From Piscinibacter sp. (GTDB lineage Bacteria; Pseudomonadota; Gammaproteobacteria; Burkholderiales; Burkholderiaceae_C): a stretch of 64,000 nucleotides of DNA. The DNA lies in NCBI RefSeq assembly GCF_035513255.1, contig NZ_DATKCI010000015.1; one strand, given 5' to 3'. The translations under genes were made by a program, and so were the position numbers. Shown one piece after another: positions 7,145-26,830 of this stretch. The notes beneath the pieces were generated by a model. The model did no database searches, was not told where the DNA came from, and saw only the letters and a program-made list of their open reading frames with translations. Numbering within the stretch: position 1 is the first letter of the stretch; every line of letters begins with the position of its first letter.

Positions 7145-7570
7145 ATGGCATACAGTGACAAAGTCGTAGAGCACTACGAAAACCCCCGCAACGTCGGCTC
7201 CTTCGCGAAGGGCGACGAAACTGTCGGCACCGGCATGGTCGGCGCACCGGCCTGCGGCGACGTGATGAAGCTGCAGATCAAGGTGAATCCGAAGACCGGC
7301 CTGATCGAGGACGCCAAGTTCAAGACCTACGGCTGCGGTTCGGCCATCGCGTCGAGCTCGCTCGTGACCGAATGGGTCAAGGGCAAGTCGCTCGACGAGG
7401 CCATGACGATCAAGAACACGCAGATCGCCGAAGAGCTGGCGTTGCCGCCGGTGAAGATCCACTGCTCGATCCTCGCCGAAGACGCAATCAAGGCGGCGGT
7501 GAACGACTACAAGGCCAACCAGACCAAGAGCGGCGCGAACACGTTGTCGCCGGCCGCTCAGGCGCATTGA
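7145..7570 (+). CDS. iscU: Fe-S scaffold protein
   Basis: [34 protein letters not shown]. Confidence 0.97.
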
Positions 7571-7574
7571 TCCG

Positions 7575-7898
7575 ATGGCCGTCACCTTGACCGCGGCGGC
7601 AGCACGCCACGTGTCGCGCTACATCACGAAGCGCGGCAAGGGCGTCGGCGTGCGCCTGGGCGTAAAGACGACGGGCTGCTCCGGCCTCGCCTACAAGCTC
7701 GAGTACGCCGACGACGTGGCGCCGGAAGATGTGGTGTTCGAGGGCCATGGCGTCAAGGTGCTGATCGATCCCAAGAGCCTGCCGTACCTCGACGGCACCG
7801 AGCTGGACTTCGTGCGCGAAGGCCTCAACGAAGGCTTCAAGTTCCGCAATCCCCGCGAGAAAGACCGCTGCGGCTGCGGCGAGTCGTTCCGCGTGTGA
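7575..7898 (+). CDS. iscA: A-type Fe-S carrier
   Basis: TTGCSG and CGCGESF motifs. Confidence 0.96.
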
Positions 7899-7959
7899 GC
7901 GATTTCCCGACCTGAAGAGGCGCAACGCCGCGCCTCTGCGGTGTCGCCTGAGCATTCCC

Positions 7960-8478
7960 ATGAAGCTGACCAGCGACGACTTCGAACTGTTCGGCGTGCC
8001 GCGGCGCTTCGAGCAAGACCGCGCCGCGCTCGATGCGCGCTGGCGCTCGCTGCAGGCCGAGGTGCACCCCGACCGCTTCGCGGCCGACGGTGCCGCGTCG
8101 CAGCGTGTGGCGATGCAGTGGGCCGTGCGTGTCAACGAGGCCTATGAGCGGCTGAAGGATCCTGTCCAGCGAGCGGCCTATTTGTGCGAGCTGAATGGCC
8201 GTCCGGTGGAGATTCAGAACAACACCGCAATGCCGGCTGCTTTCCTGGTGCAGCAGATGGAATGGCGCGAAGCTCTCGACGACGCGGAGTCGGAGGACGA
8301 AGTCGATGCGCTGGCCGCCCAGGTCGCGGCGCGCCGAAACAGCGCGCTGGCCGAACTGCGTGACACGCTGGATGGGCGCCGCGACTTCGAAACGGCGGCG
8401 CAGCAGGTCAGAGCCCTCATGTTCATCGAGCGCTTTGCGCAGGACATCGATCAGCGGCTGGAAGCGTTGGGACAATAA
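7960..8478 (+). CDS. hscB: Fe-S co-chaperone HscB
   Basis: J-domain HPD motif (VHPDRF), position in the isc operon. Confidence 0.95.
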
Positions 8479-8482
8479 CGAC

Positions 8483-10339
<1,857 letters not shown>

Positions 10340-10342
10340 GGC

Positions 10343-10681
10343 ATGCCCATCATCAAGATCCTGCCGCACCCCGAGTACTGCCCGAACGGCGCCGAGATCA
10401 AGGCCGATCCCGGCACCTCCGTCTGCGAGGCGCTGCTCGAGCACGACATCGAGATCGAGCACGCCTGCGAGATGAGCTGCGCGTGCACGACCTGTCACGT
10501 CGTCGTGCGCGAGGGCTTCGACTCGCTCGGAGAGATGGACGAAGCCGAAGAAGACCTGCTCGACCGCGCCTGGGGACTCGAAGCCACCTCACGGCTGTCG
10601 TGCCAGGCGATCCTGTCGCAGCAGGACGTGACCGTCGAGATCCCGAAGTACTCGATCAACTACGCCAAAGAGAAGCACTGA
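10343..10681 (+). CDS. fdx: ISC [2Fe-2S] ferredoxin
   Basis: HACEMSCACTTCH...RLSCQ. Confidence 0.96.
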   Translation: MPIIKILPHPEYCPNGAEIKADPGTSVCEALLEHDIEIEHACEMSCACTTCHVVVREGFDSLGEMDEAEEDLLDRAWGLEATSRLSCQAILSQQDVTVEIPKYSINYAKEKH

Positions 10682-10708
10682 ACCCGGCGCGTTTGCCGCC
10701 GGGGTTTA
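10682..10708. terminator. Hairpin between convergent fdx and mscS-family gene
   Basis: AACCCGGCG-cgtttgc-CGCCGGGGTTT. Confidence 0.55.
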
Positions 10709-11767
10709 CGCCAGCGGCGTGGCCGTTTGCTGCATGTCGAGCTCGGCCCGCATCCGCGGCAGCGCCTGCGGATGCTCGCGCTGAATGAAGCCGATCAGGG
10801 CTTCGCGCAGCTCGCAGCGCAGTTCGAAGTTCTGCGACGACGAAGCCGAGCTCGCGAGGATGCGCAGCTGCATGCAGCGTTCGCTCGCATCGGTGACCTG
10901 CACGGCGCACACGCGCCGGTCCCAGTTCGGGGACGCCTCGCACACACGCTGCGCCTCGCCTCGGATCGGCTCGACCGGCAGCGTGTAGTCGACCCACAGC
11001 ATCACGGTGCCCAGCAGATCGGCGCTGCACCGGGTCCAGTTCTGAAACGGATTTTCGATGAACCACGACAGCGGGACAACGAGGCGTCGCTCGTCCCAGA
11101 TCTTCAGCACGACGAAGGTCGACGTGATTTCCTCGACCCGGCCCCATTCGCCCTCGACGATGAGTACGTCGTCGATGCGGATCGGCTGCGCCAGCGCGAT
11201 CTGCAAGCCGGCCAGCAGGTTGCTGAATACCGACCGCGCGGCGATGCCGACGATCAGTCCGGCGACGCCGGCCGAGGCGAGCAGGCTCGCGCCGAGCTGC
11301 CGCGCGCGCGGGAACGTCATGAGGATGAAGGCGACACCGGCGAAGAGCACCACGCCGATGGCGATGCGCGCAAGCACGCGGGTCTGGGTTTGCACCCGCC
11401 GCGCTTCGAGGTTGTCGGCAACGTTCGACGGATTCAAGGCGACCACGCCGTTTGCGACGCCCTGGATCGCTGCCGCGGCGAGCCAACTGACGGTTGCGAT
11501 GGTCAGAATGCCGTTCAGGTGCTGCACGGCGGCGAGGCCGGGGAGCTCGTCCGGCACACCTTGCCAGACAACCTGCAGCGCGGCCAGTGGCAGGAGGAAC
11601 TGCGCCGGCCGGTCGCATTGCCGGACGACGGCGCTGAGCACGGTGGAGAAGCCGGCAAGACGGTAGGCCAGCGAGCGCAGCAGTCGGTGTGCGACGAGCG
11701 CGGCGAGTACGACGGCGACCGCCAGCAGGGCCAGCCGGCCCCAGGGGCCAAGGTTCGGCAGATCCAT
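10706..11767 (-). CDS. MscS-family mechanosensitive channel
   Basis: LLASAGVAGLIVGIAA..SNLLAGLQIAL.QPIRIDD, GEWGRVEEI, RRLVVP motifs. Confidence 0.9.
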   Translation of the reverse strand: MDLPNLGPWGRLALLAVAVVLAALVAHRLLRSLAYRLAGFSTVLSAVVRQCDRPAQFLLPLAALQVVWQGVPDELPGLAAVQHLNGILTIATVSWLAAAAIQGVANGVVALNPSNVADNLEARRVQTQTRVLARIAIGVVLFAGVAFILMTFPRARQLGASLLASAGVAGLIVGIAARSVFSNLLAGLQIALAQPIRIDDVLIVEGEWGRVEEITSTFVVLKIWDERRLVVPLSWFIENPFQNWTRCSADLLGTVMLWVDYTLPVEPIRGEAQRVCEASPNWDRRVCAVQVTDASERCMQLRILASSASSSQNFELRCELREALIGFIQREHPQALPRMRAELDMQQTATPLA

Positions 11768-15114: not shown

Positions 15115-15130
15115 TGGCACCTGTCTTGCT
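15115..15130 (+). promoter_or_regulatory. sigma54 (-24/-12) promoter of the flavoprotein-cytochrome operon
   Basis: TGGCAC-CTGTC-TTGCT, exact consensus. Confidence 0.9.
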
Positions 15131-15169
15131 AAGACCTGCCCCAAGCGGCGTTCGAGACGCTGCGCGGAA

Positions 15170-15254
15170 GCCAACGGCGGCCTCGGCGCAGCGTGAACGT
15201 TCGGGGACAACGAAGTCCAGCCTGCCATCGCGGCGGGCTGGACTTTTTTCTTTT
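15170..15254 (+). promoter_or_regulatory. ANTAR (NasT) tandem-hairpin leader with overlapping intrinsic terminator
   Basis: P1 GCC-AACGGC-GGC (15170-15181), P2 GGAC-AACGAA-GTCC (15205-15218), both A1/G4 hexaloops; the P2 3' arm overlaps terminator AGTCCAGCCTGCC..GGCGGGCTGGACT-TTTTT. Confidence 0.9.
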
Positions 15255-15267
15255 GAGGAACGCGTCA

Positions 15268-17262
15268 GTGCTTGCAGAAGTGCGCATCGAGATCGCAGCG
15301 GTCGCGGCGCGGCCGGTGGCCGATGCGCCCGTCGTCGTCGTCGGCGCCGGGCCGGTCGGCGTGCGTTTCGCGCAGGAGCTGCGCCGGCGCTGTCCCCAGC
15401 AGCCGCTGGTGGTCTACGGCAGCGAGCCTTGGGCGCCGTACAACCGGGTGCAGCTCTCCGCCTTTCTGGCCGGCAAAACCGATTGGTCATCGCTGACGCA
15501 AGGCCTCGCGCTGCCCGAAGACCCGAACGCGGACGTTCGGCTGCATTGCGCGGTGACCGCCATCGATCGCGCGGGGCGGTGCGTACAGGATGCGAGCGGC
15601 CGCTGGCAGCCGTATGCCAGCCTCGTGCTGGCCATCGGATCGCGCGCTCGCGTGCCCGACATTCCCGGCATCGGTCAGGCCAACGTCTTCGTCTTCCGCG
15701 ACCTCAACGACACGCAGCGGCTTTTCGCGCGGCGCGCGCGCAGCCGACGCACGGTGGTGCTCGGCGGTGGCCTGCTGGGGCTCGAGGCGGCGCGCGCGAT
15801 GCAGCGGCTGAACACCGACGTGTGGGTGATCGAACATGCGCCGCGGCTGATGGCAAGCCAGCTCGACGACGAAGGCTCAGCGCTGCTGCGCGCGCAGGTG
15901 GAGGCGGCGGGCATCCACGTGCTGACCGACACGCGTGTCAAGGCGGTGCACGGGCACGGGCGCGTCGAGGGTGTCGCGCTGCGCGGCGGCGAGCGCGTCG
16001 ATTGCGACACGGTTGTCGTTGCTGCCGGCATCCAGCCGAACGTCGACCTCGCGGTCGCCTGCGGTCTGCCGGTGGGGCGCGGCATCCGCGTGGACGACGC
16101 GATGCGCACCGGCGATCCGCACATCTACGCGATCGGTGAATGCGCGGAACACCGCGGTGCGGTCTACGGCATCGTCGCACCCGGCTTCGAGCAGGCGTCG
16201 GTCGCCGTGCACAGCGTCGCCGGCGGACAGGCGCATTACGAAGGCTCGCTGGTCGCGACACGCCTGAAAGTGCTAGATCTGCCGGTGTTCTCGATGGGCC
16301 AGCTCGGCCTCGCGGGGGACGACGCCGAGCTGCGCAGCGTGTGTCACGACGCCGGCGCCGACGGTACACACCGCCGGATCGCGGTGCGGCGCGGCCGCCT
16401 CGTCGGCGCGCTCGCGGTCGGGGCTTGTCGCGAAATGAGCCGGCTGCAGGAGGCGGTGCTCGCACGCCGCCGCGTGATGCCCTGGCAACTTTGGCGGTTC
16501 CGCCGCAGCGGCTCGCTGTGGCCCGCGGAAGAAGCGACCAGCGTCGTGCATTGGCCCGGTGCCGCGATCGTCTGCAACTGCAACGGCGTCACGCGCGCGC
16601 AGCTGGGCGACGCGATGAAGGCCGGCTGCCGCAGCGTCGGCGAACTGGCGGCGTGCACCCGAGCGTCCACCGTCTGCGGTTCGTGCAAGCCGCTGCTGGC
16701 GGAACTCGCGGGGAGCGGCGCGGCGCCGGAGCCGGTGCGCGGCTGGCGCGGGCTCGCCGCCGTCGCATTGATCGCGTTCGCCTTCGCGCTCGCGATCGCC
16801 GTGCTGCCGGGGCTTCCCTACATGGACTCGGTGCAGGCCGCATGGCAGTGGGATCGCCTGTGGCGCGATAGCTTGTACAAGCAGGTGAGCGGATTCGGCG
16901 TGCTGGGCTTGACGGCGATCGGGCTGTTGCTGACGTTTCGCAAGCGCATCGCCCGCCTGCGCCTCGGGCATTTCGACACCTGGCGCTTCGCCCATGTCGC
17001 GATCGGCCTCGCGGTGCTCGCCGTGTTGTACGTGCACACCGGCGGGCGACTCGGCAGCCAGCTCGACGGCGCGCTGATGGTGGCGTTCACCGGCCTGATC
17101 CTCGTCGGCGGCGCGAGCGCCGCCGTCATCGCGTTCGAACACCGCCTGGCGCCGTCTCTCGTTCGGCGCTGGCGCAGCCGCAGCGTGTGGCTGCACATCC
17201 TTCTGTTCTGGCCCGTACCCGTCCTGCTCGGCTTTCACGTGCTCAAGAGCTACTACTTCTGA
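15268..17262 (+). CDS. NirB-like NAD(P)H:FAD oxidoreductase + BFD [2Fe-2S] domain fused to a ferric-reductase/NOX-like diheme-b membrane domain
   Basis: VGAGPVG, LGGGLLGLEAA, IYAIGEC; CNC...CGSC; five C-terminal TMs with two H-X13-H pairs; no siroheme/[4Fe-4S] domain. GTG start after GAGGA. Confidence 0.85.
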   Translation: MLAEVRIEIAAVAARPVADAPVVVVGAGPVGVRFAQELRRRCPQQPLVVYGSEPWAPYNRVQLSAFLAGKTDWSSLTQGLALPEDPNADVRLHCAVTAIDRAGRCVQDASGRWQPYASLVLAIGSRARVPDIPGIGQANVFVFRDLNDTQRLFARRARSRRTVVLGGGLLGLEAARAMQRLNTDVWVIEHAPRLMASQLDDEGSALLRAQVEAAGIHVLTDTRVKAVHGHGRVEGVALRGGERVDCDTVVVAAGIQPNVDLAVACGLPVGRGIRVDDAMRTGDPHIYAIGECAEHRGAVYGIVAPGFEQASVAVHSVAGGQAHYEGSLVATRLKVLDLPVFSMGQLGLAGDDAELRSVCHDAGADGTHRRIAVRRGRLVGALAVGACREMSRLQEAVLARRRVMPWQLWRFRRSGSLWPAEEATSVVHWPGAAIVCNCNGVTRAQLGDAMKAGCRSVGELAACTRASTVCGSCKPLLAELAGSGAAPEPVRGWRGLAAVALIAFAFALAIAVLPGLPYMDSVQAAWQWDRLWRDSLYKQVSGFGVLGLTAIGLLLTFRKRIARLRLGHFDTWRFAHVAIGLAVLAVLYVHTGGRLGSQLDGALMVAFTGLILVGGASAAVIAFEHRLAPSLVRRWRSRSVWLHILLFWPVPVLLGFHVLKSYYF

Positions 17263-17264
17263 GC

Positions 17265-18707
17265 ATGCGACGAGACCAACGACGACTCTGGATCACCTGG
17301 GGACTGCTGACCGTGATCATCGCCGCCACGTTCGCCACCGCGCTGCTGTGGAAGCGCTCGGCCACGCTGCCGGTGCTCGCGAGCGCACGCGCGGCCTTGG
17401 TGCCCGGCCAGACGACGCACGGCCACCACCAGATCGAACTCGCCTGCGAGAGCTGCCACAGCTCGCCGTTCGGCGGCGGCGCCGTGATGCAGGAGGCCTG
17501 CGTGAATTGCCACGGCGCGGCGCTGAAGGAAGGCGACGACAAGCACCCGGCGTCGAAGTTCGACGACCCGCGCAACGCGTTCCGCCTCGCGAAGATCGAT
17601 GCGCAACAGTGCATCGCCTGTCATGTCGAGCACCGTCCGGCCGCAACGCACGCGATGGGCCTCACGCAGCCGAAGGACTACTGCTTCCACTGCCACAGCG
17701 GCCCGGACGAGATGCCGGCCGACCACAAGGGCCTGCCTTTCGACGGCTGCATGGCGGCCGGCTGCCACAACTACCACGACAACCGGGCGCTGTACGAAGA
17801 CTTCCTGCTGAAGCACGCCGGCGAGCCGCCGTTGCTGGACAAGCGGCAGCTGCCCGAACGCGACCTGCTGACGGCGCTGCAGGAGTCGCTGGCCTACCCG
17901 CAGGCGCGTTATCCGGTCCAGCCGTTGGCGGCCGCGGCGGTCGACGCACCGCGGGGTCACCGTGCCGATCCCAAGATTCACGCCGACTGGCTGGGCACCG
18001 CGCATGCGAAGGCCGGCGTCAACTGCAGCGGCTGCCACGTCGTCGGCGCCACGGTGCCCGAAGGCGAACCGCGTCCGGCGAACGATGGGCAATGGGTCGA
18101 GCGCCCGGCCACGCCGCAGTCCTGCCAAGGGTGCCATGTGGTGGAGACGAAAGGCTTTCTTTCGGGCAAGCACGGCATGCGCTTGGCGCAGGGCCTGTCG
18201 CCGATGGCGCCCGCACAAGCCAGGCTGCCGATGCGCAGCGAGGCGGCGCACGCCGAGCTGAGCTGCACGAGCTGCCACACCGCGCACCGCTTCGACACGA
18301 AGGCGGCGGCGGTCGATTCCTGCCTCTCGTGCCATGACGACACACACTCGCTGGCCTACAAGCAGTCGCCGCACCGCGAGCTGTGGCGGCGTGAACTGCA
18401 GGGCGAGCTGCCGCCGGGCTCCGGTGTCACCTGCGCGAGCTGCCACATGCCGCGGGTCCGCGTGAGCACCGACGAAGGTTCGCGCATGGCCGTGCAGCAC
18501 AACCAGAACGACACGTTGCAGCCCAACGAAAAGATGATCCGGCCCGCCTGCATGAGCTGCCATGGCCTGGGCTTTTCCATCGATGCCTTGGCCGATCGCG
18601 CGCTGATCGATCGCAACTTCGCGGGCCAGCCGTCGCGCCACGTCGAAAGCATTGACATGGCGGTGCGCAAGGACCAGCAGTCATCGCGTGCACGCGAGCG
18701 GCCGTGA
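17265..18707 (+). CDS. Membrane-anchored multiheme cytochrome c (10 CxxCH + 1 CX4CH)
   Basis: N-terminal TM anchor; CESCH, CVNCH, CIACH, CFHCH, CMAAGCH, CSGCH, CQGCH, CTSCH, CLSCH, CASCH, CMSCH; ATG 2 nt after the upstream stop. Confidence 0.92.
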   Translation: MRRDQRRLWITWGLLTVIIAATFATALLWKRSATLPVLASARAALVPGQTTHGHHQIELACESCHSSPFGGGAVMQEACVNCHGAALKEGDDKHPASKFDDPRNAFRLAKIDAQQCIACHVEHRPAATHAMGLTQPKDYCFHCHSGPDEMPADHKGLPFDGCMAAGCHNYHDNRALYEDFLLKHAGEPPLLDKRQLPERDLLTALQESLAYPQARYPVQPLAAAAVDAPRGHRADPKIHADWLGTAHAKAGVNCSGCHVVGATVPEGEPRPANDGQWVERPATPQSCQGCHVVETKGFLSGKHGMRLAQGLSPMAPAQARLPMRSEAAHAELSCTSCHTAHRFDTKAAAVDSCLSCHDDTHSLAYKQSPHRELWRRELQGELPPGSGVTCASCHMPRVRVSTDEGSRMAVQHNQNDTLQPNEKMIRPACMSCHGLGFSIDALADRALIDRNFAGQPSRHVESIDMAVRKDQQSSRARERP

Positions 18708-18759
18708 CCGCCGGCATCGCGGCCGTCGCCATCCCTTTTTCAACCCCGAGGAGAGAACC

Positions 18760-19317
18760 ATGAAACCGAGTCGACATCTTCCGATCCTTCTGGCTGCGCT
18801 GGTTGCCGGCGGCACGGCCGCCGCCGAGGGCATATCGCCGCAGCAGATGACCGACGCGCTGCATGCCGTGATGGCCGCCGACCGCGCCGTCTACACCAAG
18901 CTGATCGTCAACCGGCTGCAGAACGAAGAGAAGCTCATCAAGGCCAGTGAGCACTGGAAGGACGACAAGGCCCTCGTGTTGCCGGCGCAGATGTTCCGCT
19001 ATGGCGCGGAGGAGGTGGCCAAGACCAACAAGAGCTTCAGCTACTCGCTGCTGTCGACCTGGCCGGTGAACAAGCAGAACGCGCCGCGCACACCGGCGGA
19101 GAAGGAGGGCCTCGCGTTCATCGAGAAGAACCCGACGAAGGCCTACTACAAGACGGAGGACCTCGGTGGCAAGAAGTTCTTCACGGCCGTCTACGCGGAC
19201 CGGGCCATCGCGCCGGCCTGCATCACCTGCCACAACCAGCACAAGGACAGCCCGCGCACCGACTTCAAGATCGGCGACACGATGGGCGGCGTGGTCATCC
19301 GCGTGCCGATGAACTGA
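18760..19317 (+). CDS. Secreted mono-heme c protein, Tll0287-like/DUF3365 family
   Basis: Sec signal (..GGTAAA/EG), LPAQM, PVNKQNAP, ACITCH near the C-terminus, GDTMGGVVIRVP; RBS GAGGAG. Confidence 0.8.
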   Translation: MKPSRHLPILLAALVAGGTAAAEGISPQQMTDALHAVMAADRAVYTKLIVNRLQNEEKLIKASEHWKDDKALVLPAQMFRYGAEEVAKTNKSFSYSLLSTWPVNKQNAPRTPAEKEGLAFIEKNPTKAYYKTEDLGGKKFFTAVYADRAIAPACITCHNQHKDSPRTDFKIGDTMGGVVIRVPMN

Positions 19318-19349
19318 GCATCCAAGCAACCCAGCCGAAAGGACACCTC

Positions 19350-19763
19350 ATGACACCGCAACAAGTCGCCCTGGTTCAGGCCTCGTGGCAAAAAATCGTG
19401 CCGATCAAGGACAAGGCCGCCGAGCTCTTCTACGGCAAGCTGTTCGAGATGGACCCCTCGCTGAAACCCCTGTTCAAGGGAGACATGGCCGACCAGGGCC
19501 GCAAGCTCACCGCGATGATCAACACCGCGGTCGTCAACCTGCACCAGCTCGACGGCATCGTCGGCGCCGTGCAGGACCTGGGCCGCCGCCACGTCGGCTA
19601 CGGCGTGAAGGACGAGCACTACGACACGGTCGGCGGCGCGCTGCTGTGGACCTTGGGTGCCGGCCTCGGCGACGCGTTCACCGACGACGTGAAGACCGCG
19701 TGGACGCAAACCTACGGCATTCTGGCCAGCGCGATGAAGGGGGCGGCGAAAGCGCCGGCCTGA
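19350..19763 (+). CDS. Single-domain bacterial globin (flavohemoglobin-like globin domain only)
   Basis: B10 Tyr (LFY), CD1 Phe (LFK), E7 Gln (DQGRKL), F8 His (RRHVGYGV); no reductase domain. Confidence 0.92.
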   Translation: MTPQQVALVQASWQKIVPIKDKAAELFYGKLFEMDPSLKPLFKGDMADQGRKLTAMINTAVVNLHQLDGIVGAVQDLGRRHVGYGVKDEHYDTVGGALLWTLGAGLGDAFTDDVKTAWTQTYGILASAMKGAAKAPA

Positions 19764-21438: not shown

Positions 21439-22407
21439 ATGGAACAAGTGATGAAGCTGTTTGGCGGCCTCGCGGCCAGCGACCCTCGCGAGCTCGCACG
21501 TTCGCTGATGTTGAACCTCGGCGTGCCGGTGATCGCGTTCGCGCTGTTCCTCTCGCTGTGGGCATTCGGTGCGTCGCGCGTGCAGACCAGCCTCGGCGCC
21601 GTGCCCGGGCCGGCGCAGGTGCTGGCCCAGGCGAAGGCGCTGTTCGACGATCACGTCGAGGAGCGTGCCAAGCGCGCCGAGTTCTACGAGCGGCAGGCGC
21701 AGCGCAACCGCGAGCGGCTGGCGGAAGATCCGAACGCCGAAGTGCGCGTGTTCAACTGGACCGGCAAGCCGACTTACCTGGACCAGATCGTCACGAGCCT
21801 GATCACGGTGTTCACCGGCTTCCTGATCGCCACCGCCGTCGCCGTGCCGGTGGGCATTCTCTGCGGCTCGTCGCGCATCGTGCAGGCCGCGCTGAACCCG
21901 ATGGTGCAGGTGTTCCGGCCGGTGTCGCCGCTGGCCTGGCTGCCGATCGTGACGCTGATCGTCAGCGCGGTCTACGTGACCGCCGGCGAGCCGATGTTCC
22001 AGAAGTCGTTCCTGATCTCGGCCATCACCGTGACGCTGTGTTCGCTGTGGACCACGCTGCTGAACACCGCAATCGGCGTCACGTCGGTCGACAAGGACCT
22101 GGTCAACGTCGGCCGCGTGCTGCAACTGCCGTGGACGACCCGCGTGCGCAAGATCGTGCTGCCGTCGGCACTGCCCTACATCTTCACCGGCATGCGGCTG
22201 TCGCTCGGCGTCGGCTGGATGGTGCTGATCGCCGCGGAGATGCTCGCGCAGAACCCGGGGCTCGGCAAGTTCGTCTGGGACGAATTCCAGAACGGCAGCT
22301 CCGACTCGCTGAGCCGCATCATGGTCGCGGTGTTCACGATCGGCATCATCGGCTTTCTGCTCGACCGGCTGATGCTCGGCTTGCAGCACCTGGCGTCGCG
22401 CGCATGA
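21439..22407 (+). CDS. nrtB: Nitrate-type ABC transporter permease
   Basis: [33 protein letters not shown]; long periplasmic insertion after TM1. Confidence 0.88.
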
Positions 22408-24236
22408 ACGGGCTGTTGAAAAGCATGAACAACGCAGCCACCGTGCCCCTGGTCGATGCGAGCGCCGCTGCCGCAGCGCCGCGGATCGCGGCCGTTCCCG
22501 ATGCGGCGGCGCTCGAGTTGCGCGGCGTCGCCAAACGCTACGGCAGCGGCCGTGCTGCCACCGAGGTGCTGCACGACATCAACCTGCGCATCGCGCCGGG
22601 TGAGTTTGTTGCGATCGTCGGCTTTTCCGGCAGCGGCAAGACGACGCTCGTGAACCTGCTCGCGGGTCTCGCGACGGCCGACGACGGCGAGGTGCTCAAG
22701 CAAGGTCAACCGATCCGCGGACCGGGGCCGGACCGCGGCATCGTCTTTCAGAGCTATTCGCTGATGCCGTGGCTCACCGTGCGCCAGAACGTCGCGCTGG
22801 CGGTGGACTGCGTGTACGCCGGCGAGTCGGCCCGGGCGCGCGCCGAGCGGGTCAAGCATTACGTGGCGATGGTCGGCCTGAGCGCCGCCATCGACAAGAA
22901 GCCGGCGCAGCTGTCCGGCGGCATGCGCCAGCGCGTGTCGGTGGCGCGTGCGCTTGCGACCAACCCCGACGTGCTGCTGCTCGACGAGCCGCTGTCGGCG
23001 CTCGATGCGCTCACGCGCGCGAACCTGCAGGACGAGATCACCCGCATCTGGAGCGAGGAGAAGAAGACCGTTCTGCTGATCACCAACGACGTCGACGAGG
23101 CGCTGATCCTCGCGGACCGCATCATCCCGCTGAACCCGGGGCCGAAGGCGACCTTGGGACCCGCGTTCGAGGTCGACATCGCCAGGCCGCGCGACCGGCG
23201 CGAAATGAACCACGATGCCCGCTTCAAGGCGCTGCGCGGCGAGATCACGCAGTACCTGATCGACGTGGCGCACCGGCGCGAGGCGGGAACCAGCGCCAAG
23301 GTGATCCAGCTGCCGGTGCTCGTGCCGCGCGTGGAGGGCCGCAAGCTGCCGTCCCTCGCGTCGCTGGCGGGCATGCGGCATGCGGCGCAGCTCGAGGCGA
23401 TGGCGCAACGGGAGTCGGGCGCCGCGAAGACGGCCGAGCATGCGAAGTTGTCCGACGCGCGCTTTGTCGAGTTCTCGCAGGTCGTCAAGGTCTACCCGAC
23501 GCCGCGCGGCCCGCAGACCGTCGTCGACGGCTTCGACCTGAAGATGCGCAAAGGCGAGTTCGTCTCGGTGATCGGCCCTTCGGGCTGCGGCAAGTCGACG
23601 GTTCTGTCGATGGTCGCGGGGTTGACCGACATCACCGAGGGCGGCGTCATCCTCGACGGCCGCGAGATCGCCGGCGCCGCGCCGGACCGCGGCCTCGTGT
23701 TCCAGTCGCCGAGCCTCGTCCCCTGGCTCAGCGCGTACGAGAACGTGATGCTCGGCGTGCAACGTGTGTTCGCCGACGCGTCAGCGGCGCAGCGCCGCAG
23801 CACCGTCGAGTACTACCTGTCGCGGGTCGGCCTGGCCGATGCGATGCACAAGCGCGCCGGCGAGCTGTCCAACGGCATGAAGCAGCGCGTGGGCATCGCG
23901 CGCGCATTCGCGCTGAACCCCAAGTTGCTGCTGCTCGACGAGCCGTTCGGCATGCTGGACTCGCTGACGCGCTGGGACCTGCAGGAAGTGCTGATGGAGG
24001 TGTGGGCGCGCAACCAGGTCACGGCGATCATGGTCACGCACGACGTCGACGAAGCGATCCTGCTGGCCGATCGTGTGGTGATGATGACCAACGGCCCGAA
24101 CGCGAAGATCGGCAAGGTGATGGACGTGACGCTGCCGCGCCCGCGTTCGCGCGCCGCGCTGCTGGCGCATCCGCGCTACTACGAGTTGCGCGAGGAGCTG
24201 ATCACGTTCCTGGAAGACTGCGGCCGCCAGCATTGA
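22404..24236 (+). CDS. Fused tandem ABC ATPase (NrtC/NrtD-like double NBD)
   Basis: Two full NBDs in one frame: [24 protein letters not shown] and [24 protein letters not shown]. Confidence 0.9.
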
Positions 24237-24364: not shown

Positions 24365-25567
24365 TCACTCGCGCCGGCGGATCTTGAATGCGTCGGCATA
24401 GACCGCCGGCTCGGTTCCGTCCCAGACCACGCCGTCCATCAGACGGCTCGAGCGCATCGGGCTGGTCGGCACCGGAATGTTCAGCGCCGACGCCGCCTCG
24501 CGGTACAGCGCGATCTGGTTGATCTGAGACGCGACGCCGAGGTAGTCGGGGTGTTCCTTCAGGAGGCCCCATCGTTTCTGCTGCGTCAGGAACCACATGC
24601 CGTCCGACAGGTACGGGAAGTTCACTTCGCCGTCGCGGAAGAAGCTCATGTGGTGCGGGTCTTCCCAGGTCCGCCCGAGGCCGTTGGTGTAGCAGCCGAC
24701 GATGCGCTCGAGGATCACGTCGACCGAGGTGTCGACGAAAGGCTTGGCGGCGATCGTCTCGGCCATCTTGCGCCGGTTCGCCGCGGTCGCGTCGATCCAG
24801 CGGCTCGCCTCGAGCACCGCCATCACGACCGCGCGACAGGTGTTCGGGTAGCGCCGGACGTAGTCGGCCGTGCTCGCGACGACCTTTTCCGGGTGGTTGC
24901 GCCAGATGTCCTGCGAGCTTGCGGCATGCACCGACACGCCGTCGAGAATGCCGCGGTGGTTCCACGGCTCGCCGACCGAAAAACCGTCCATGTTGCCGGC
25001 GCGTGCGTTGGCGACCATCTGCGGCGGCGGCACGACGATGGTCTTCACGTCGGCGAACGGGTCGATGCCGGCCGAGGCGAGCCAGTAGTACAGCCACATC
25101 GCGTGCGTCCCGGTGGGGAAGGTTTGCGCGAAGGTGTAATCGCGCCGCTCGCTGCGCAGCAACACGGCCAGCGATCCGAGATCGACGGCCCCCTTGTCGG
25201 CGAGGCGCCGCGACAGCGACAGCCCCTGGCCGTTGTTGTTGATCGTCATCAGCACGGCCATGTCCTTCTTCGGGCCGCCGACACCGAGGTGAACGCCGTA
25301 GACGAGGCCGTACAGCACATGCGCCATGTCGATGTCGCCGCGCACCAGTTTGTCGCGCACGCCGGCCCAGGATGCTTCCTTCGTGGGCACGATGCGGATG
25401 CCGTGCTTCCGGTCGAAACCGAGCACCGACGCCATCACCACCGAGGCGCAGTCGGTCAGCGGCATGAAGCCGATGCGAACCTCCTCGCGCTCGGGCTTGT
25501 CGCTGCCGGCGAGCCGCAGGATGGGGCGGGGCGGTCGGCCATGGGGTCCGGGGACGGTGTGGTTCAT
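24365..25567 (-). CDS. nasS: Cytoplasmic nitrate/nitrite sensor NasS
   Basis: NrtA-like fold (IGFMPLTDCAS, FPTGTHAMWLYYWL, VGEPWN) but no signal peptide; directly downstream of an ANTAR regulator. Confidence 0.85.
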   Translation of the reverse strand: MNHTVPGPHGRPPRPILRLAGSDKPEREEVRIGFMPLTDCASVVMASVLGFDRKHGIRIVPTKEASWAGVRDKLVRGDIDMAHVLYGLVYGVHLGVGGPKKDMAVLMTINNNGQGLSLSRRLADKGAVDLGSLAVLLRSERRDYTFAQTFPTGTHAMWLYYWLASAGIDPFADVKTIVVPPPQMVANARAGNMDGFSVGEPWNHRGILDGVSVHAASSQDIWRNHPEKVVASTADYVRRYPNTCRAVVMAVLEASRWIDATAANRRKMAETIAAKPFVDTSVDVILERIVGCYTNGLGRTWEDPHHMSFFRDGEVNFPYLSDGMWFLTQQKRWGLLKEHPDYLGVASQINQIALYREAASALNIPVPTSPMRSSRLMDGVVWDGTEPAVYADAFKIRRRE

Positions 25568-25605
25568 GCGAAATCGAGCCTGACAGGGGAGGTGGAGTGC
25601 ATCGG

Positions 25606-26238
25606 TCAGCCCAGCAACTCGGCCACGTCGACGACGCGCTGCGCGACGTCGGCGATCTTCAGCCCCTTGTCCATCGCGGTCTTGCGCAGCCGCGCGTAGG
25701 CCTCGGGTTCGCCGATGTCGTGGCGCTTCATCAGCAGCCCCTTCGCTCGGTCGATCAGCTTGCGGTCGTTGAGCTGGTTGCGCGCCTCGGCGAGCGCCTG
25801 CAGCAGCGACTCCTGGTGCTGGAAGCGTGCCATCGCGACGTCGAGCACCGGCCGGATTCGCTCGGGTGCCAGGCCGGCGACCACGTAGGCCGTCACGCCG
25901 GCGGCGATTGCGTCACGCACGTGGGACGTGTCGTTGTCCTCGGTGAACAGCACGATCGGCCTGCGGGCGTCGCGCGTGGCCATCACGACGTGCTCCAGCG
26001 TGTCGCGCGCCTGGCTCTCGGCATCGATGATGATCATGTCGGGGCCGATCTGCGCGAGCCGGTCGGGCAGGAAGACGTCGGCCGGCAGCACGGCGACGAT
26101 GTTGTAGCCATGCTCGAGCATGCCGATGCGCAGGCTGCGCGAGCGCTCCGCCGCCACCTGCGCCTCGGGGTCGGCAGGGTCGGGGGCAAGCGTCTCGGGC
26201 GCGACGATGACGATGCGCAGGGCCTGGGCCGAGGTCAT
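25606..26238 (-). CDS. nasT: ANTAR-domain antiterminator NasT
   Basis: Pseudo-receiver (PDMIIIDAES) + ANTAR (DRKLIDRAKGLLM..EPEAYARLRKTAMD); start ATG 26238. Confidence 0.92.
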   Translation of the reverse strand: MTSAQALRIVIVAPETLAPDPADPEAQVAAERSRSLRIGMLEHGYNIVAVLPADVFLPDRLAQIGPDMIIIDAESQARDTLEHVVMATRDARRPIVLFTEDNDTSHVRDAIAAGVTAYVVAGLAPERIRPVLDVAMARFQHQESLLQALAEARNQLNDRKLIDRAKGLLMKRHDIGEPEAYARLRKTAMDKGLKIADVAQRVVDVAELLG

Positions 26239-26250
26239 GGCGACCGGCGA

Positions 26251-26266
26251 AGCAACATCTGCGCCA
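26251..26266 (-). promoter_or_regulatory. sigma54 promoter of nasTS
   Basis: Minus strand TGGCGC-AGATG-TTGCT. Confidence 0.8.
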
Positions 26267-26293
26267 TTGCGTCGTCCAAGAACGACCGGGCGC

Positions 26294-26317
26294 AAAAAAG
26301 CCCGCTCGCGGCGGGCT
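26294..26317 (-). terminator. Intrinsic terminator of the small orphan gene
   Basis: Minus strand AGCCCGC-cgcga-GCGGGCT-TTTTT. Confidence 0.85.
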
Positions 26318-26336
26318 CTCTCTGTTTGGGGTGGGG

Positions 26337-26621
26337 TCAGCGGCCCGGGTGGGACGACATGGCTCGCCGCAGCCACCCGCCCAGCGGGCGCAACGACCAG
26401 AACTGCGAATCGGTGGCGACCGCCTCGCGCTCGATGAGGAGGTCGCGGGCTTCCAGCATCTCGATGAAGTGGCGAACCTCGTAGCGCTTGAGTCCGCTCA
26501 AGTCCGCCAGTTGGGCGAGCGTGACATGGCGGTGCGACATGTCGCTCGCCATGCGGCGATAGGCGGTTCGGTCGAAGGGGGACGTCAACTCCGGCCACGC
26601 GCTGAGACGGTACTCTTTCAT
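26337..26621 (-). CDS. Small hypothetical protein, possible winged HTH (94 aa)
   Basis: MKEYRLSAWPEL...TLAQLADLSGLKRYEVRHFIEML; GGAG RBS, followed by a strong terminator. Confidence 0.7.
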   Translation of the reverse strand: MKEYRLSAWPELTSPFDRTAYRRMASDMSHRHVTLAQLADLSGLKRYEVRHFIEMLEARDLLIEREAVATDSQFWSLRPLGGWLRRAMSSHPGR

Positions 26622-26830
26622 GGCTCCAACGACTTTCTTGGTTGTGGCGGTTGCTTCGGGGCAACCGTTCTCGGGAAACGCAGGGTAGTTCCTGTTCTTT
26701 GGAACGTGAAGGGAATTCTTACCGATACCGGGTAATCCCTGAGTAGAAACGTGTGTCGAGTTGTGATTGGCGCGACGCGGCGCCGGAAGCCTGACGCCGC
26801 TGACGACAGGCGCCACCGTAAACTTGGTCG

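What the first reader, a model, noticed from the sequence alone, without database searches (positions are those of the whole stretch)
18760..19317. Stand-alone periplasmic Tll0287/DUF3365-like heme protein as candidate terminal or catalytic subunit
This domain is mostly known as a heme-c sensor domain on kinases/chemoreceptors; cyanobacterial Tll0287 has His/Cys ligation. Here it is a free secreted protein with only the two CxxCH cysteines, so no Cys distal ligand is available (Met of LPAQM, a Lys/His, or an open site are alternatives). Sitting right after a probably all-bis-His cytochrome, it is the best candidate for the substrate-binding heme.
Basis: inference. Interest (0 to 1): 0.7.

Follow-up and report, generated by a model that had tools for sequence, protein, structure and literature searches.

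The report
Cysteine-less haem-Cache subunit of electron exporter
This small secreted single-haem protein is real, and it is the most conserved and nearly always present partner of an 11-haem cytochrome in a widespread, unstudied operon that appears to push NAD(P)H electrons out to the periplasm alongside nitrate assimilation, probably to deal with nitric oxide or a similar small nitrogen oxide.

Summary
The ORF at 18760-19317 is confirmed. It encodes 185 aa with a Sec signal peptide, one CITCH motif and no third cysteine. It matches Pfam Tll0287-like/DUF3365 (E 4e-19), and its model is closest to Tll0287 (5B82).

New here:
- **Conservation.** This protein belongs to a tight orthogroup, median 70% identity across six phyla.
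- **Gene order.** It always follows a NirB-N-type flavoprotein fused to a four-histidine membrane domain and an 11-haem cytochrome. A cytoplasmic globin usually comes next.
- **Reverse test.** Starting from the cytochrome, 22 of 24 genomes carry this gene directly downstream.
- **Haem site.** The position of the axial Cys in His/Cys-type relatives is an invariant Ala. Met78 is a doubtful ligand.
- **Partner cytochrome.** It has 12 conserved spare His for 11 haems.
- **Genome association.** 21 of 22 cassette genomes also hold canonical NirB, so the cassette accompanies siroheme nitrite reductase rather than replacing it.

Best reading: the terminal, ligand-accessible periplasmic haem of an NAD(P)H-driven electron-export chain, most likely handling NO. 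The substrate is inferred, not shown.

The parts
18748..18755 (+). Ribosome-binding site GAGGAGAG, 4 nt before the ATG
   Evidence: read directly from the sequence
18760..19317 (+). CDS of the stand-alone sCache_heme / Tll0287-like haem-c protein (185 aa plus stop)
18760..18825 (+). Sec signal peptide (residues 1-22, predicted cleavage AAA|EG). Roughly 40-45% of orthologues have a lipobox Cys here instead
   Evidence: sequence; lipobox tallies
18979..18999 (+). Invariant L74-P-A76-Q-M78-F-R80 at the start of helix 75-89. A76 occupies the position of the axial Cys of His/Cys-type relatives. M78 is a doubtful ligand
19219..19233 (+). Haem-c attachment motif C154-I-T-C157-H158 (proximal His), on the short helix 152-160 inserted between strands 138-148 and 174-183
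19282..19284 (+). Met175 in GDxMGG at the start of the last strand. It is conserved across the whole subclade (46/56 distant stand-alone, 10/11 long or fused) and is an alternative weak sixth-ligand candidate
15268..17262 (+). Operon partner 1: NirB-N-type FAD/NAD(P)H plus BFD [2Fe-2S] flavoprotein fused to a C-terminal membrane domain. The domain has four invariant His in two i/i+14 pairs
   Evidence: 48 orthologues: 4 Cys and 4 His, all 100% conserved
17265..18707 (+). Operon partner 2: N-terminally membrane-anchored 11-haem cytochrome c (10 CxxCH plus one CX4CH), with 12 conserved non-motif His
19350..19763 (+). Operon partner 3: cytoplasmic single-domain globin of the Hmp globin-domain type
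   Evidence: present in 62 of 80 related loci
15115..15255 (+). Operon leader: sigma-54 promoter TGGCAC-N5-TTGCT (15115-15130), then a 15-bp-stem, T-tailed terminator (15212-15246 plus tail) just before the reductase RBS

Best explanation
The gene encodes the periplasmic end-piece of a four-part redox module.

Shown by sequence and comparative data:
- It is a single-haem-c Cache-fold protein, soluble here and lipid-anchored in many other lineages.
- It lacks the axial cysteine of the His/Cys (Tll0287) type. The ligand position is Ala.
- It is the obligatory and most strongly conserved partner of a membrane-anchored 11-haem cytochrome.
- That cytochrome follows a flavoprotein (FAD, NAD(P)H, [2Fe-2S]) fused to a membrane domain with four invariant histidines.

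Inferred path: NAD(P)H -> FAD -> [2Fe-2S] -> two haems b across the membrane -> 11-haem wire -> this haem.

Inferred function: its sixth coordination site is exchangeable (water, or weakly bound Met78 or Met175), as in the NO-binding Cys-less members of the family. A small nitrogen oxide, most likely NO, binds there. It is then turned over, either reduced or, with O2, dioxygenated to nitrate, using electrons from the chain. The cytoplasmic globin, fed by the same flavoprotein, would do the equivalent job inside the cell.

The module is switched on with nitrate assimilation (sigma-54 promoter, leader terminator, adjacent nasS-nasT and nrtABCD). It accompanies NirBD rather than replacing it. Tandem-domain relatives suggest that the working unit is a dimer.
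For: - **Family and fold:**
- **Conservation:** median identity to the window proteins over 80 loci from six phyla is Tll 70% (min 64), globin 64%, cytochrome 50%, flavoprotein 49%. Sixty of about 160 mature positions are invariant in 43 sequences.
- **Gene order:** flavoprotein-cytochrome-Tll is conserved in every locus with enough flank.
- **Reverse test:** 24 of 401 evenly drawn genomes of the class have the cytochrome, and 22 of those have Tll directly downstream.
- **The cytochrome-Tll pair survives a swap of the reductase.** In L115/L116 the reductase is cNMP_binding+BFD+FAD_binding_6+NAD_binding_1.
- **The cytoplasmic haem-b gene is also swapped:** truncated haemoglobin in L118, chlorite-dismutase-like in L121.
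- **Haem site:** His/Cys-type relatives with exactly three Cys (P0237, P0205) carry the extra Cys at the column of A76, 82 residues before the proximal His, as in the window protein. In 5B82, Cys68 to strand-1 spacing maps to residue 76/77. Y45, D147, N159, H161 and M175 are shared with MCP- and kinase-fused relatives.
- **Precedent:** a Cys-less sCache_heme protein binds NO with koff 6e-4 s-1, whereas a His/Cys stand-alone one binds it weakly (bioRxiv 10.64898/2026.02.01.703092).
- **Cytochrome:** 11 motifs, 12 conserved spare His, no CxxCK.
- **Flavoprotein:** 4 Cys and 4 TM His are invariant in 48 orthologues.
- **Regulation and linkage:**
- **Association with NirB:** 21/22 against 133/378, Fisher p = 1e-8.
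- **Precedent for NO detoxification tied to nitrate assimilation:** narK-bjgb-flp-nasC of Bradyrhizobium (PMC4724949).
Against: - No experiment exists on any member of this orthogroup. Ligation, spin state and ligand binding are all unknown.
- No atomic coordinates were available, so the distal pocket could not be inspected.
- One haem c has no obvious means of multi-electron N-oxide chemistry unless it acts as a dimer.
- 34 of 75 operons encode a further monohaem c5-like cytochrome after this gene, which fits an electron-relay role as well as a terminal role.
- Extreme conservation is also typical of small electron carriers with several partners.
- The globin is missing from about a fifth of loci.
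- The NirB association is not corrected for phylogeny.
- A test for complementary distribution with flavohaemoglobin Hmp was uninformative (0/22 against 23/378, p = 0.26).
- An 11-haem wire is more than a one-electron NO dioxygenase would need.
Confidence: 0.45

Rival explanations
1. Pure electron-transfer adaptor. The haem is stably six-coordinate (His158 with Met78 or Met175). The protein only passes electrons from the 11-haem cytochrome to other periplasmic acceptors: the c5-like cytochrome where present, or the general cytochrome-c pool and its enzymes such as peroxidase, NirK/NirS, Nor or N2OR.
For: - 34 of 75 operons place a class-I monohaem cytochrome right after it.
- Two invariant Met are available.
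- The stand-alone P. putida sCache_heme behaved as a redox protein with weak NO binding.
- High conservation fits a carrier with several docking partners.
- GSU0935 shows that His/Met ligation occurs in this fold.
Against: - The characterised 'redox-type' stand-alone members are His/Cys, and this one has Ala at that position.
- Position 78 is M/F/L in relatives, including His/Cys-type ones.
- Roughly 40-45% of orthologues are lipoproteins, and some relatives are tandem fusions. This argues against a freely diffusing shuttle.
- An 11-haem cytochrome would not need a Cache-fold adaptor to reach a class-I cytochrome.
- The window operon has no c5 gene.
Confidence: 0.25
2. Ligand-gated regulator. 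The protein is a stand-alone NO or redox sensor. When its haem binds NO or changes redox state, it docks on or releases the cytochrome or exporter, or another membrane partner, and so gates electron export instead of transforming the ligand.
For: - The fold is a sensor (Cache) fold.
- The closest relatives outside the orthogroup include MCP- and PAS/kinase-fused proteins with the same pocket residues (P0238, P0249, P0262).
- Cys-less members signal on NO binding (10.64898/2026.05.25.727664).
- In GSU0582 and GSU0935 a redox-linked Met on/off switch is the proposed signal.
Against: - There is no signalling output domain, and no conserved signalling gene in the cassette.
- The gene's position, co-inheritance and higher conservation than its partners fit a stoichiometric subunit.
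- Regulation of the operon is already accounted for by the sigma-54 promoter, the leader terminator and nasS-nasT.
Confidence: 0.12
3. Catalytic subunit of a periplasmic assimilatory nitrite or hydroxylamine reductase. The 11-haem cytochrome stores electrons, and this haem reduces nitrite or NH2OH to ammonium, standing in for siroheme nitrite reductase.
For: - The operon sits by nrtABCD and nasS-nasT.
- The cytochrome has weak NrfA/c552-like similarity, 22.6 bits, below the cut-off.
- Many haems suit a six-electron reaction.
- The orthogroup has many invariant polar residues: H65, R52, R80, Q106, N107, K170.
Against: - Canonical NirB is present in 21 of 22 cassette genomes, sometimes within 10 kb. 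The window's own genome has narK, nirB, nirD and nasA on another contig.
- There is no CxxCK, no Tyr-crosslink context and no similarity to known nitrite-reducing active sites.
- H65 is replaced by Q or Y in other cytochrome-linked variants (P0121, P0132).
- The ABC importer next door brings nitrate and nitrite into the cytoplasm, where NirBD acts.
Confidence: 0.1

Closest known systems
Tll0287 of Thermosynechococcus elongatus (PDB 5B82) and the stand-alone P. putida sCache_heme protein ('Cluster 1', His/Cys type)
   Same: Both belong to Pfam family PF11845. Both have the Cache/PAS-like fold with CxxCH on a short helix inserted before the last strand. Both are secreted, stand-alone proteins.
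   Different: There is no axial Cys; the position is Ala. Identity to 5B82 is only 16% (TM 0.54/0.61). The CxxCH-to-last-strand loop is 11 residues shorter. The gene is locked into an operon with an 11-haem cytochrome and an NAD(P)H flavoprotein-membrane fusion, a context not mentioned in the text held here of the paper that defines the family (the terms operon, nitrate, nitrite and multiheme are absent there).
Cys-less sCache_heme sensors ('Cluster 2'): the P. azotoformans Cache_heme-HAMP NO receptor; Geobacter MCP sensor domains GSU0582 and GSU0935 (PDB 3B47, 3B42)
   Same: Both have a haem-c Cache domain without a Cys ligand. Relatives in the window protein's own subclade are fused to MCP or kinase modules and share Y45, A76, D147, N159, H161 and M175. 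In the known sensors NO (and CO) binds at the sixth site, and a Met from the N-terminal helices can ligate reversibly.
   Different: The window protein has no transmembrane helix, HAMP or output domain. It is paired with redox partners instead of signalling partners. The window genome's own sensor-type paralogues (contigs C163 and C228) score far better against the Pfam model (115-126 bits against 70).
Integrated nitrate-assimilation/NO-detoxification system NarK-Bjgb-Flp-NasC of Bradyrhizobium (PMC4724949)
   Same: A single-domain globin and a NirB-N-like FAD/NAD(P)H flavoprotein are co-expressed with nitrate assimilation under NasS-NasT-type control. The proposed purpose is to remove NO made as a by-product.
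   Different: In Bradyrhizobium everything is cytoplasmic and soluble. Here the flavoprotein carries a four-His membrane domain and feeds a periplasmic chain of 12 haems c, ending in this protein.
NOX / ferric-reductase-domain NAD(P)H oxidases and MtrA-type multihaem wires
   Same: The logic is the same: cytoplasmic NAD(P)H, then a flavin, then two bis-His haems b across the membrane, then an acceptor outside. A multihaem cytochrome serves as the wire.
   Different: The flavin module is different (pyridine-nucleotide-disulfide oxidoreductase plus BFD, not the FNR type, except in variant L115). The outside acceptor is a haem-c Cache protein rather than O2, Fe(III) or an outer-membrane conduit.

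Membership tests
Tll0287-like / DUF3365 / sCache_heme (PF11845) | Match to the family HMM above the curated cut-off | tested here: met
   69.9 bits against 24.1, E 4.1e-19, residues 33-183 on profile positions 14-144
Tll0287-like / DUF3365 / sCache_heme (PF11845) | Canonical CxxCH on a short helix inserted between the last two strands of the Cache fold | tested here: met
   C154-ITC-H158 lies on helix 152-160, between strands 138-148 and 174-183 of the AF2 model. It is invariant in 121/121 orthologues
Tll0287-like / DUF3365 / sCache_heme (PF11845) | Cache/PAS-like fold resembling solved members | tested here: met
   Foldseek top hits are 5B82 (E 5e-6, prob 1.00, TM 0.54/0.61) and 3B42 (E 1e-4), followed by Cache sensor domains (DctB, LuxQ, CitA)
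Tll0287-like / DUF3365 / sCache_heme (PF11845) | Extracytoplasmic location and covalent haem | not testable with these tools
   A signal peptide is evident in the sequence. Orthologues have a signal peptide or a lipobox. Haem attachment needs biochemistry
His/Cys-ligated stand-alone 'redox' subclass (Tll0287, P. putida protein) | Axial cysteine on the helix preceding strand 1 | tested here: not met
   The mature protein has only the two motif Cys. The column that holds the third Cys in His/Cys-type relatives P0237 and P0205 is A76. The spacing to 5B82 Cys68 agrees
Cys-less NO-sensor subclass (Cache_heme-HAMP, MCP or kinase fusions) | Fusion to transmembrane and cytoplasmic signalling modules | tested here: not met
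   185 aa, a single domain, with a stop directly after the last strand
Cys-less NO-sensor subclass (Cache_heme-HAMP, MCP or kinase fusions) | Exchangeable sixth site with slow NO dissociation | not testable with these tools
   Only indirect evidence: Ala at the ligand position, and pocket residues shared with fused relatives
His/Met haem-c PAS/Cache sensors (GSU0935 type) | Met from the N-terminal helices as reversible distal ligand | tested here: inconclusive
   M78 is invariant in 121/121 orthologues and lies 80 residues before His158 (the GSU0935 spacing is 84). However, the column is M/F/L in relatives, including His/Cys-type ones. No coordinates were available to measure distances
Known N-oxide-reducing haem-c active sites (NrfA CxxCK haem, HAO/P460 cross-linked haem) | Lys-ligated CxxCK haem or Tyr/Lys cross-link context | tested here: not met
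   There is no CxxCK in this protein or in the 11-haem cytochrome; all 22 Cys of the cytochrome lie in CxxCH or CX4CH motifs. There is no sequence hit to such enzymes

The most novel reading that the evidence does not exclude
The protein is the first enzyme built on a haem-c Cache fold: a periplasmic NO dioxygenase or NO scavenger. Its ferrous state is regenerated by NAD(P)H electrons carried across the membrane through the four-His domain and the 11-haem wire. Together with the cytoplasmic globin, which is fed by the same flavoprotein, it would form a two-compartment system. That system would convert NO, made by the cell itself or by neighbours, into nitrate, which the adjacent NrtABCD importer and NasA/NirBD then assimilate. 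NO would thus serve as a salvaged nitrogen source.
Probability: 0.15. Interest if true: 0.85.

Novelty: new variant of a known kind. Interest (0 to 1): 0.62.

Why it matters
The sCache_heme family was defined only in 2026. That work divided it into His/Cys stand-alone 'redox' proteins and Cys-less NO sensors fused to signalling modules. This orthogroup fits neither class. It is stand-alone but Cys-less, and it is hard-wired to a multihaem cytochrome and an NAD(P)H-driven membrane exporter.

The cassette is common, found in about 5% of an even sample of the class, and it occurs in Pseudomonadota, Nitrospirota, Verrucomicrobiota, Myxococcota, Methylomirabilota and Poribacteria. It is tied statistically and physically to nitrate assimilation. 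No paper found in the library searched here mentions this operon.

Working out what this haem binds would do three things:
- assign a function to a widespread four-gene module;
- test whether a sensor fold has been recruited as a catalytic or terminal redox subunit;
- possibly reveal how aerobic soil and groundwater bacteria handle NO on the periplasmic side during nitrate assimilation.

Cupriavidus necator carries the cassette, so the question can be tested by genetics.

Tried and rejected
1. **Direct sequence search of the PDB.** The single protein found nothing relevant. A profile reached 5B82 only over residues 82-181, so Cys68 was mapped by spacing, not by alignment. Two further attempts to extend the alignment failed, one with an own-genome paralogue and one with a profile of Cys-type relatives.
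2. **The Tll0287 structure paper.** PMC5465485 is not held.
3. **Model coordinates.** None are returned for the AF2 model, so His158-Met78, His158-Met175 and His158-His65 distances could not be measured. The sixth ligand stays open.
4. **Met78 as His/Met ligand.** This was my first reading, from spacing and 121/121 conservation. I downgraded it after seeing M/F/L at that column in relatives, including His/Cys-type ones, with the Cys two residues upstream.
5. **'The cassette replaces siroheme nitrite reductase'.** Rejected. The window's genome holds nirB, nirD and nasA elsewhere, and 21 of 22 cassette genomes have NirB.
6. **Complementary distribution with flavohaemoglobin Hmp.** The result was 0/22 against 23/378, p = 0.26, which is not informative.
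7. **Expression data.** Only soil-metagenome DNA runs hold the sequence, and no RNA run was listed.
8. **Unsupervised clustering of flanking ORFs.** It was noisy because of antisense ORFs in high-GC DNA, but it did reveal the optional c5-like cytochrome.
9. **Literature searches.** Searches for the operon (DUF3365/Tll0287, PF11845, multihaem plus nitrate assimilation plus globin plus NasT) found no description of it.
Full report
**1. Observation**

The ORF runs from ATG 18760 to the stop at 19315-19317 and encodes 185 aa. The RBS GAGGAGAG lies at 18748-18755. The N-terminus MKPSRHLPILLAALVAGGTAAA|EG is a Sec signal of the SPase-I type.

The protein has exactly two cysteines, both in C154-ITC-H158 (nt 19219-19233). 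Pfam PF11845 (Tll0287-like, formerly DUF3365) matches at 69.9 bits against a cut-off of 24.1. NCBIfam has no model for it.

An AlphaFold2 model built on 43 orthologues has mean pLDDT 85. Its order of elements is: long helix 27-56, a loop, helix 75-89, strand 94-98, helix 112-123, strands 129-135 and 138-148, the short CxxCH helix 152-160, and strand 174-183. Foldseek against the PDB puts Tll0287 (5B82) first (E 5e-6, TM 0.54/0.61). The Geobacter GSU0935 sensor domain (3B42) comes second, followed by Cache sensor domains.

**2. What is already known about the family**

A 2026 preprint (10.64898/2026.02.01.703092) renames the family sCache_heme. It reports CxxCH in at least 99% of members and finds that nearly half of them are stand-alone. 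It contrasts two types:
- a stand-alone His/Cys protein from P. putida, which is redox-like and binds NO weakly;
- a Cys-less, HAMP-linked protein from P. azotoformans, which binds NO with koff 6e-4 s-1.

The version 1 text held here does not contain the words operon, nitrate, nitrite or multiheme. The later version listed was not searched for these terms.

The Geobacter sensors show reversible His/Met ligation (His144-Met60), and NO and CO displace the Met (PMC8396549).

**3. A tight orthogroup in a fixed cassette**

A search of 5.8 billion proteins gave 5134 homologues. The best 120 are all stand-alone, 178-228 aa, and 65-98% identical.

Eighty genome loci were fetched. They come from Beta-, Gamma- and Alphaproteobacteria, Nitrospirota, Verrucomicrobiota, Myxococcota, Methylomirabilota and Poribacteria. 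Wherever the flank suffices, the order is:
- a NirB-N-type flavoprotein with a C-terminal membrane domain;
- the multihaem cytochrome;
- this gene;
- a globin, in 62 of 80 loci.

NrtABCD and NasS/NasT lie nearby in about half of the loci.

Median identity to the window's proteins:

| Protein | Median identity |
|---|---|
| This protein | 70% (min 64) |
| Globin | 64% |
| Cytochrome | 50% |
| Flavoprotein | 49% |

This protein is thus the most constrained member. Sixty positions are invariant in 43 sequences.

The reverse test asked whether the cytochrome can occur without this gene. In 401 genomes drawn evenly from the class, 24 carry a homologue of the cytochrome, and 22 of these have this gene directly downstream. 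One exception has a truncated cytochrome. The other is a distant variant (32% identity) with a cNMP-binding reductase.

**4. Variants that define the core**

| Relative | Identity | Context |
|---|---|---|
| P0121 (two copies fused in tandem) | 55% | Follows a cytochrome and a different reductase (cNMP_binding, BFD, FAD_binding_6, NAD_binding_1) |
| P0124 | 55% | Cytochrome-Tll-monohaem cytochrome c-truncated haemoglobin |
| P0132 | 53% | Flavoprotein-cytochrome-Tll-chlorite-dismutase-like protein (no signal peptide)-NrtA-like |
| C. necator orthologue (P0049) | 73% | Cassette directly followed by ccmABCDEFGHI |

Five relatives at 52% identity or less are not linked to a cytochrome.

The cytochrome-Tll pair is therefore the invariant core. 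The reductase and the cytoplasmic haem-b protein can each be replaced by non-homologous equivalents. The tandem fusions suggest a dimeric working unit.

In 34 of 75 loci a c5-like monohaem cytochrome of 111-141 aa (CxxCH ... MPxRGG) lies between this gene and the globin. The window lacks it. Roughly 40-45% of orthologues carry a lipobox instead of an SPase-I site.

**5. The haem site**

In 121 orthologues, H65, A76, M78, H158, N159, H161 and M175 are invariant or nearly so. Two points bear on the sixth ligand.

First, the Cys position. Relatives of the same subclade with exactly three cysteines (P0237, P0205) carry the third one in the motif P-C at the column of A76. It lies 82 residues before the proximal His, exactly as A76 does. 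In 5B82 the profile alignment pairs residue 82 with K91, which places Cys68 at residue 76/77. So the axial-Cys position is an invariant Ala. The MCP- and kinase-fused relatives P0238, P0249 and P0262 also have Ala there (LPLPATF..), and they share Y45, D147, N159, H161 and M175.

Second, Met78. Its column is M/F/L in relatives, including the His/Cys type (PCEMF, PCELF, PCVFL). It therefore behaves like a hydrophobic packing or haem-contact residue. I rate it a possible ligand, not the likely one. M175 is conserved more widely (46/56 distant stand-alone, 10/11 long or fused), but it is Arg in Tll0287. H65 is Q or Y in other cytochrome-linked variants.

Without coordinates the sixth ligand cannot be settled. 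The pattern fits an exchangeable site best.

**6. The partners**

*Cytochrome.* It has ten CxxCH motifs plus one CX4CH, all 100% conserved in 59 sequences. Twelve conserved His lie outside the motifs. There is no CxxCK and no Cys outside the motifs. An N-terminal membrane helix anchors it.

*Flavoprotein.* Its start is GTG 15268. The four Cys of the BFD [2Fe-2S] site and four histidines in membrane helices are invariant in 48 orthologues. The histidines form two i/i+14 pairs (H576/H590 and H643/H657). That is the arrangement expected for two haems b stacked across the membrane.

*Leader.* It holds a sigma-54 promoter (TGGCAC-N5-TTGCT, 15115-15130) and a 15-bp-stem terminator with a T tail (15212-15246) just before the RBS. 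nasS and nasT lie at 24365-26664 on the minus strand.

**7. Place in nitrogen metabolism**

The window's genome has narK, nirB, nirD and nasA on another contig. It also has two sensor-type sCache_heme proteins.

Of 22 cassette genomes, 21 have a full-length NirB. Among the other 378 genomes of the same sample, 133 do (Fisher p = 1e-8, not corrected for phylogeny). In some genomes nirB lies within 10 kb of the cassette. The cassette therefore accompanies siroheme nitrite reductase and does not replace it.

None of the 22 cassette genomes has a full-length flavohaemoglobin. The background is only 6%, so this says nothing.

**8. Mechanism**

*Shown.* The fold, the motif, the export signal, the absence of the axial Cys, the obligatory linkage to the cytochrome, the conserved cofactor ligands of the partners, and the linkage to nitrate assimilation.

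*Inferred.* Electrons run NAD(P)H -> FAD -> [2Fe-2S] -> two haems b -> 11 haems c -> this haem. The haem has an open or weakly ligated sixth site that binds a small nitrogen oxide, most likely NO. The ligand is then reduced or, with O2, dioxygenated. The globin does the cytoplasmic counterpart. The precedent is the NarK-Bjgb-Flp-NasC system (PMC4724949).

I give this reading 0.45. Within it, the partner and terminal-acceptor part is much firmer (about 0.75) than the identity of the ligand. The rivals are:
- a plain electron adaptor to the c5-like cytochrome or the cytochrome-c pool (0.25);
- a ligand-gated regulator of the chain (0.12);
- a periplasmic assimilatory nitrite or hydroxylamine reductase (0.10).

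**9. Novelty**

The family and its stand-alone forms are known. The following are not described in the literature I could search:
- a Cys-less stand-alone clade;
- its fixed pairing with an 11-haem cytochrome and an NAD(P)H-driven membrane exporter;
- its statistical tie to nitrate assimilation.

I class it as a new variant of a known kind. It is a good experimental target, because Cupriavidus necator carries the cassette.

Earlier AI notes on the neighbouring genes agree with the electron-export reading. Their claim that siroheme nitrite reductase is 'replaced' does not hold at the genome level.

Noticed in passing
related loci, e.g. L018:5856-6248, L075, L001 (between the Tll0287-like gene and the globin): 34 of 75 related operons carry an extra monohaem c5-like cytochrome of 111-141 aa (CxxCH ... 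MPxRGG) after the Tll0287-like gene. The window has only a 32-nt gap there (19318-19349).
   Followed up: partly
L118:3038-3406 and L121:6736-7302: The slot held by the Hmp-type globin in the window is filled by a truncated haemoglobin (PF01152) in one variant and by a 188-aa chlorite-dismutase-like protein (PF06778) in another. Neither has a signal peptide. This is non-orthologous replacement by other cytoplasmic haem-b proteins.
   Followed up: partly
L115/L116:3067-8107: Variant cassette: the reductase is of a different type (cNMP_binding + BFD + FAD_binding_6 + NAD_binding_1, 856 aa), followed by the multihaem cytochrome and a tandem-duplicated Tll0287-like protein (368 aa). A TonB-dependent receptor and ExbB/ExbD lie nearby.
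   Followed up: no
L119:5539-16847 (Cupriavidus necator chromosome record): In C. necator the four-gene cassette is directly followed by the complete cytochrome-c maturation operon ccmABCDEFGHI. There are no nrt or nas genes next to it.
   Followed up: no
window 15115-15255: A near-consensus sigma-54 promoter (TGGCAC-N5-TTGCT, 15115-15130) is followed by a 15-bp-stem T-tailed terminator (15212-15246) just upstream of the reductase RBS. Hairpins with AACGGC and AACGAA loops precede and overlap the terminator. This looks like a NasT/ANTAR antitermination leader.
   Followed up: partly
own genome, contigs C163:3167-4381 (-) and C228:52418-53641 (+): The genome has two further Tll0287-like proteins of the sensor type: one with TM and HAMP only (like the published Cache_heme-HAMP NO receptor), and one with TM and GGDEF. 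Both score much higher on the Pfam model than the window protein.
   Followed up: partly
own genome, contig C213:14215-23981: A canonical nitrate-assimilation cluster (NarK-like transporter, a 587-aa phosphatase/kinase-like ORF, nirB 819 aa, nirD 118 aa, nasA 927 aa) lies on a different contig from the nrtABCD-nasST locus of the window.
   Followed up: partly
L112 (G215:C117), minus strand 7186-10895: A distant paralogous pair: a cNMP-binding + NirB-N + membrane-domain protein (840 aa) and an 11-CxxCH cytochrome (429 aa, 32% identity). No Tll0287-like gene follows; a 1023-aa ORF comes next.
   Followed up: no
window 22404-24236: The nitrate-type ABC transporter has its two ATPase domains fused in one 610-aa protein (NrtC and NrtD fused).
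   Followed up: no
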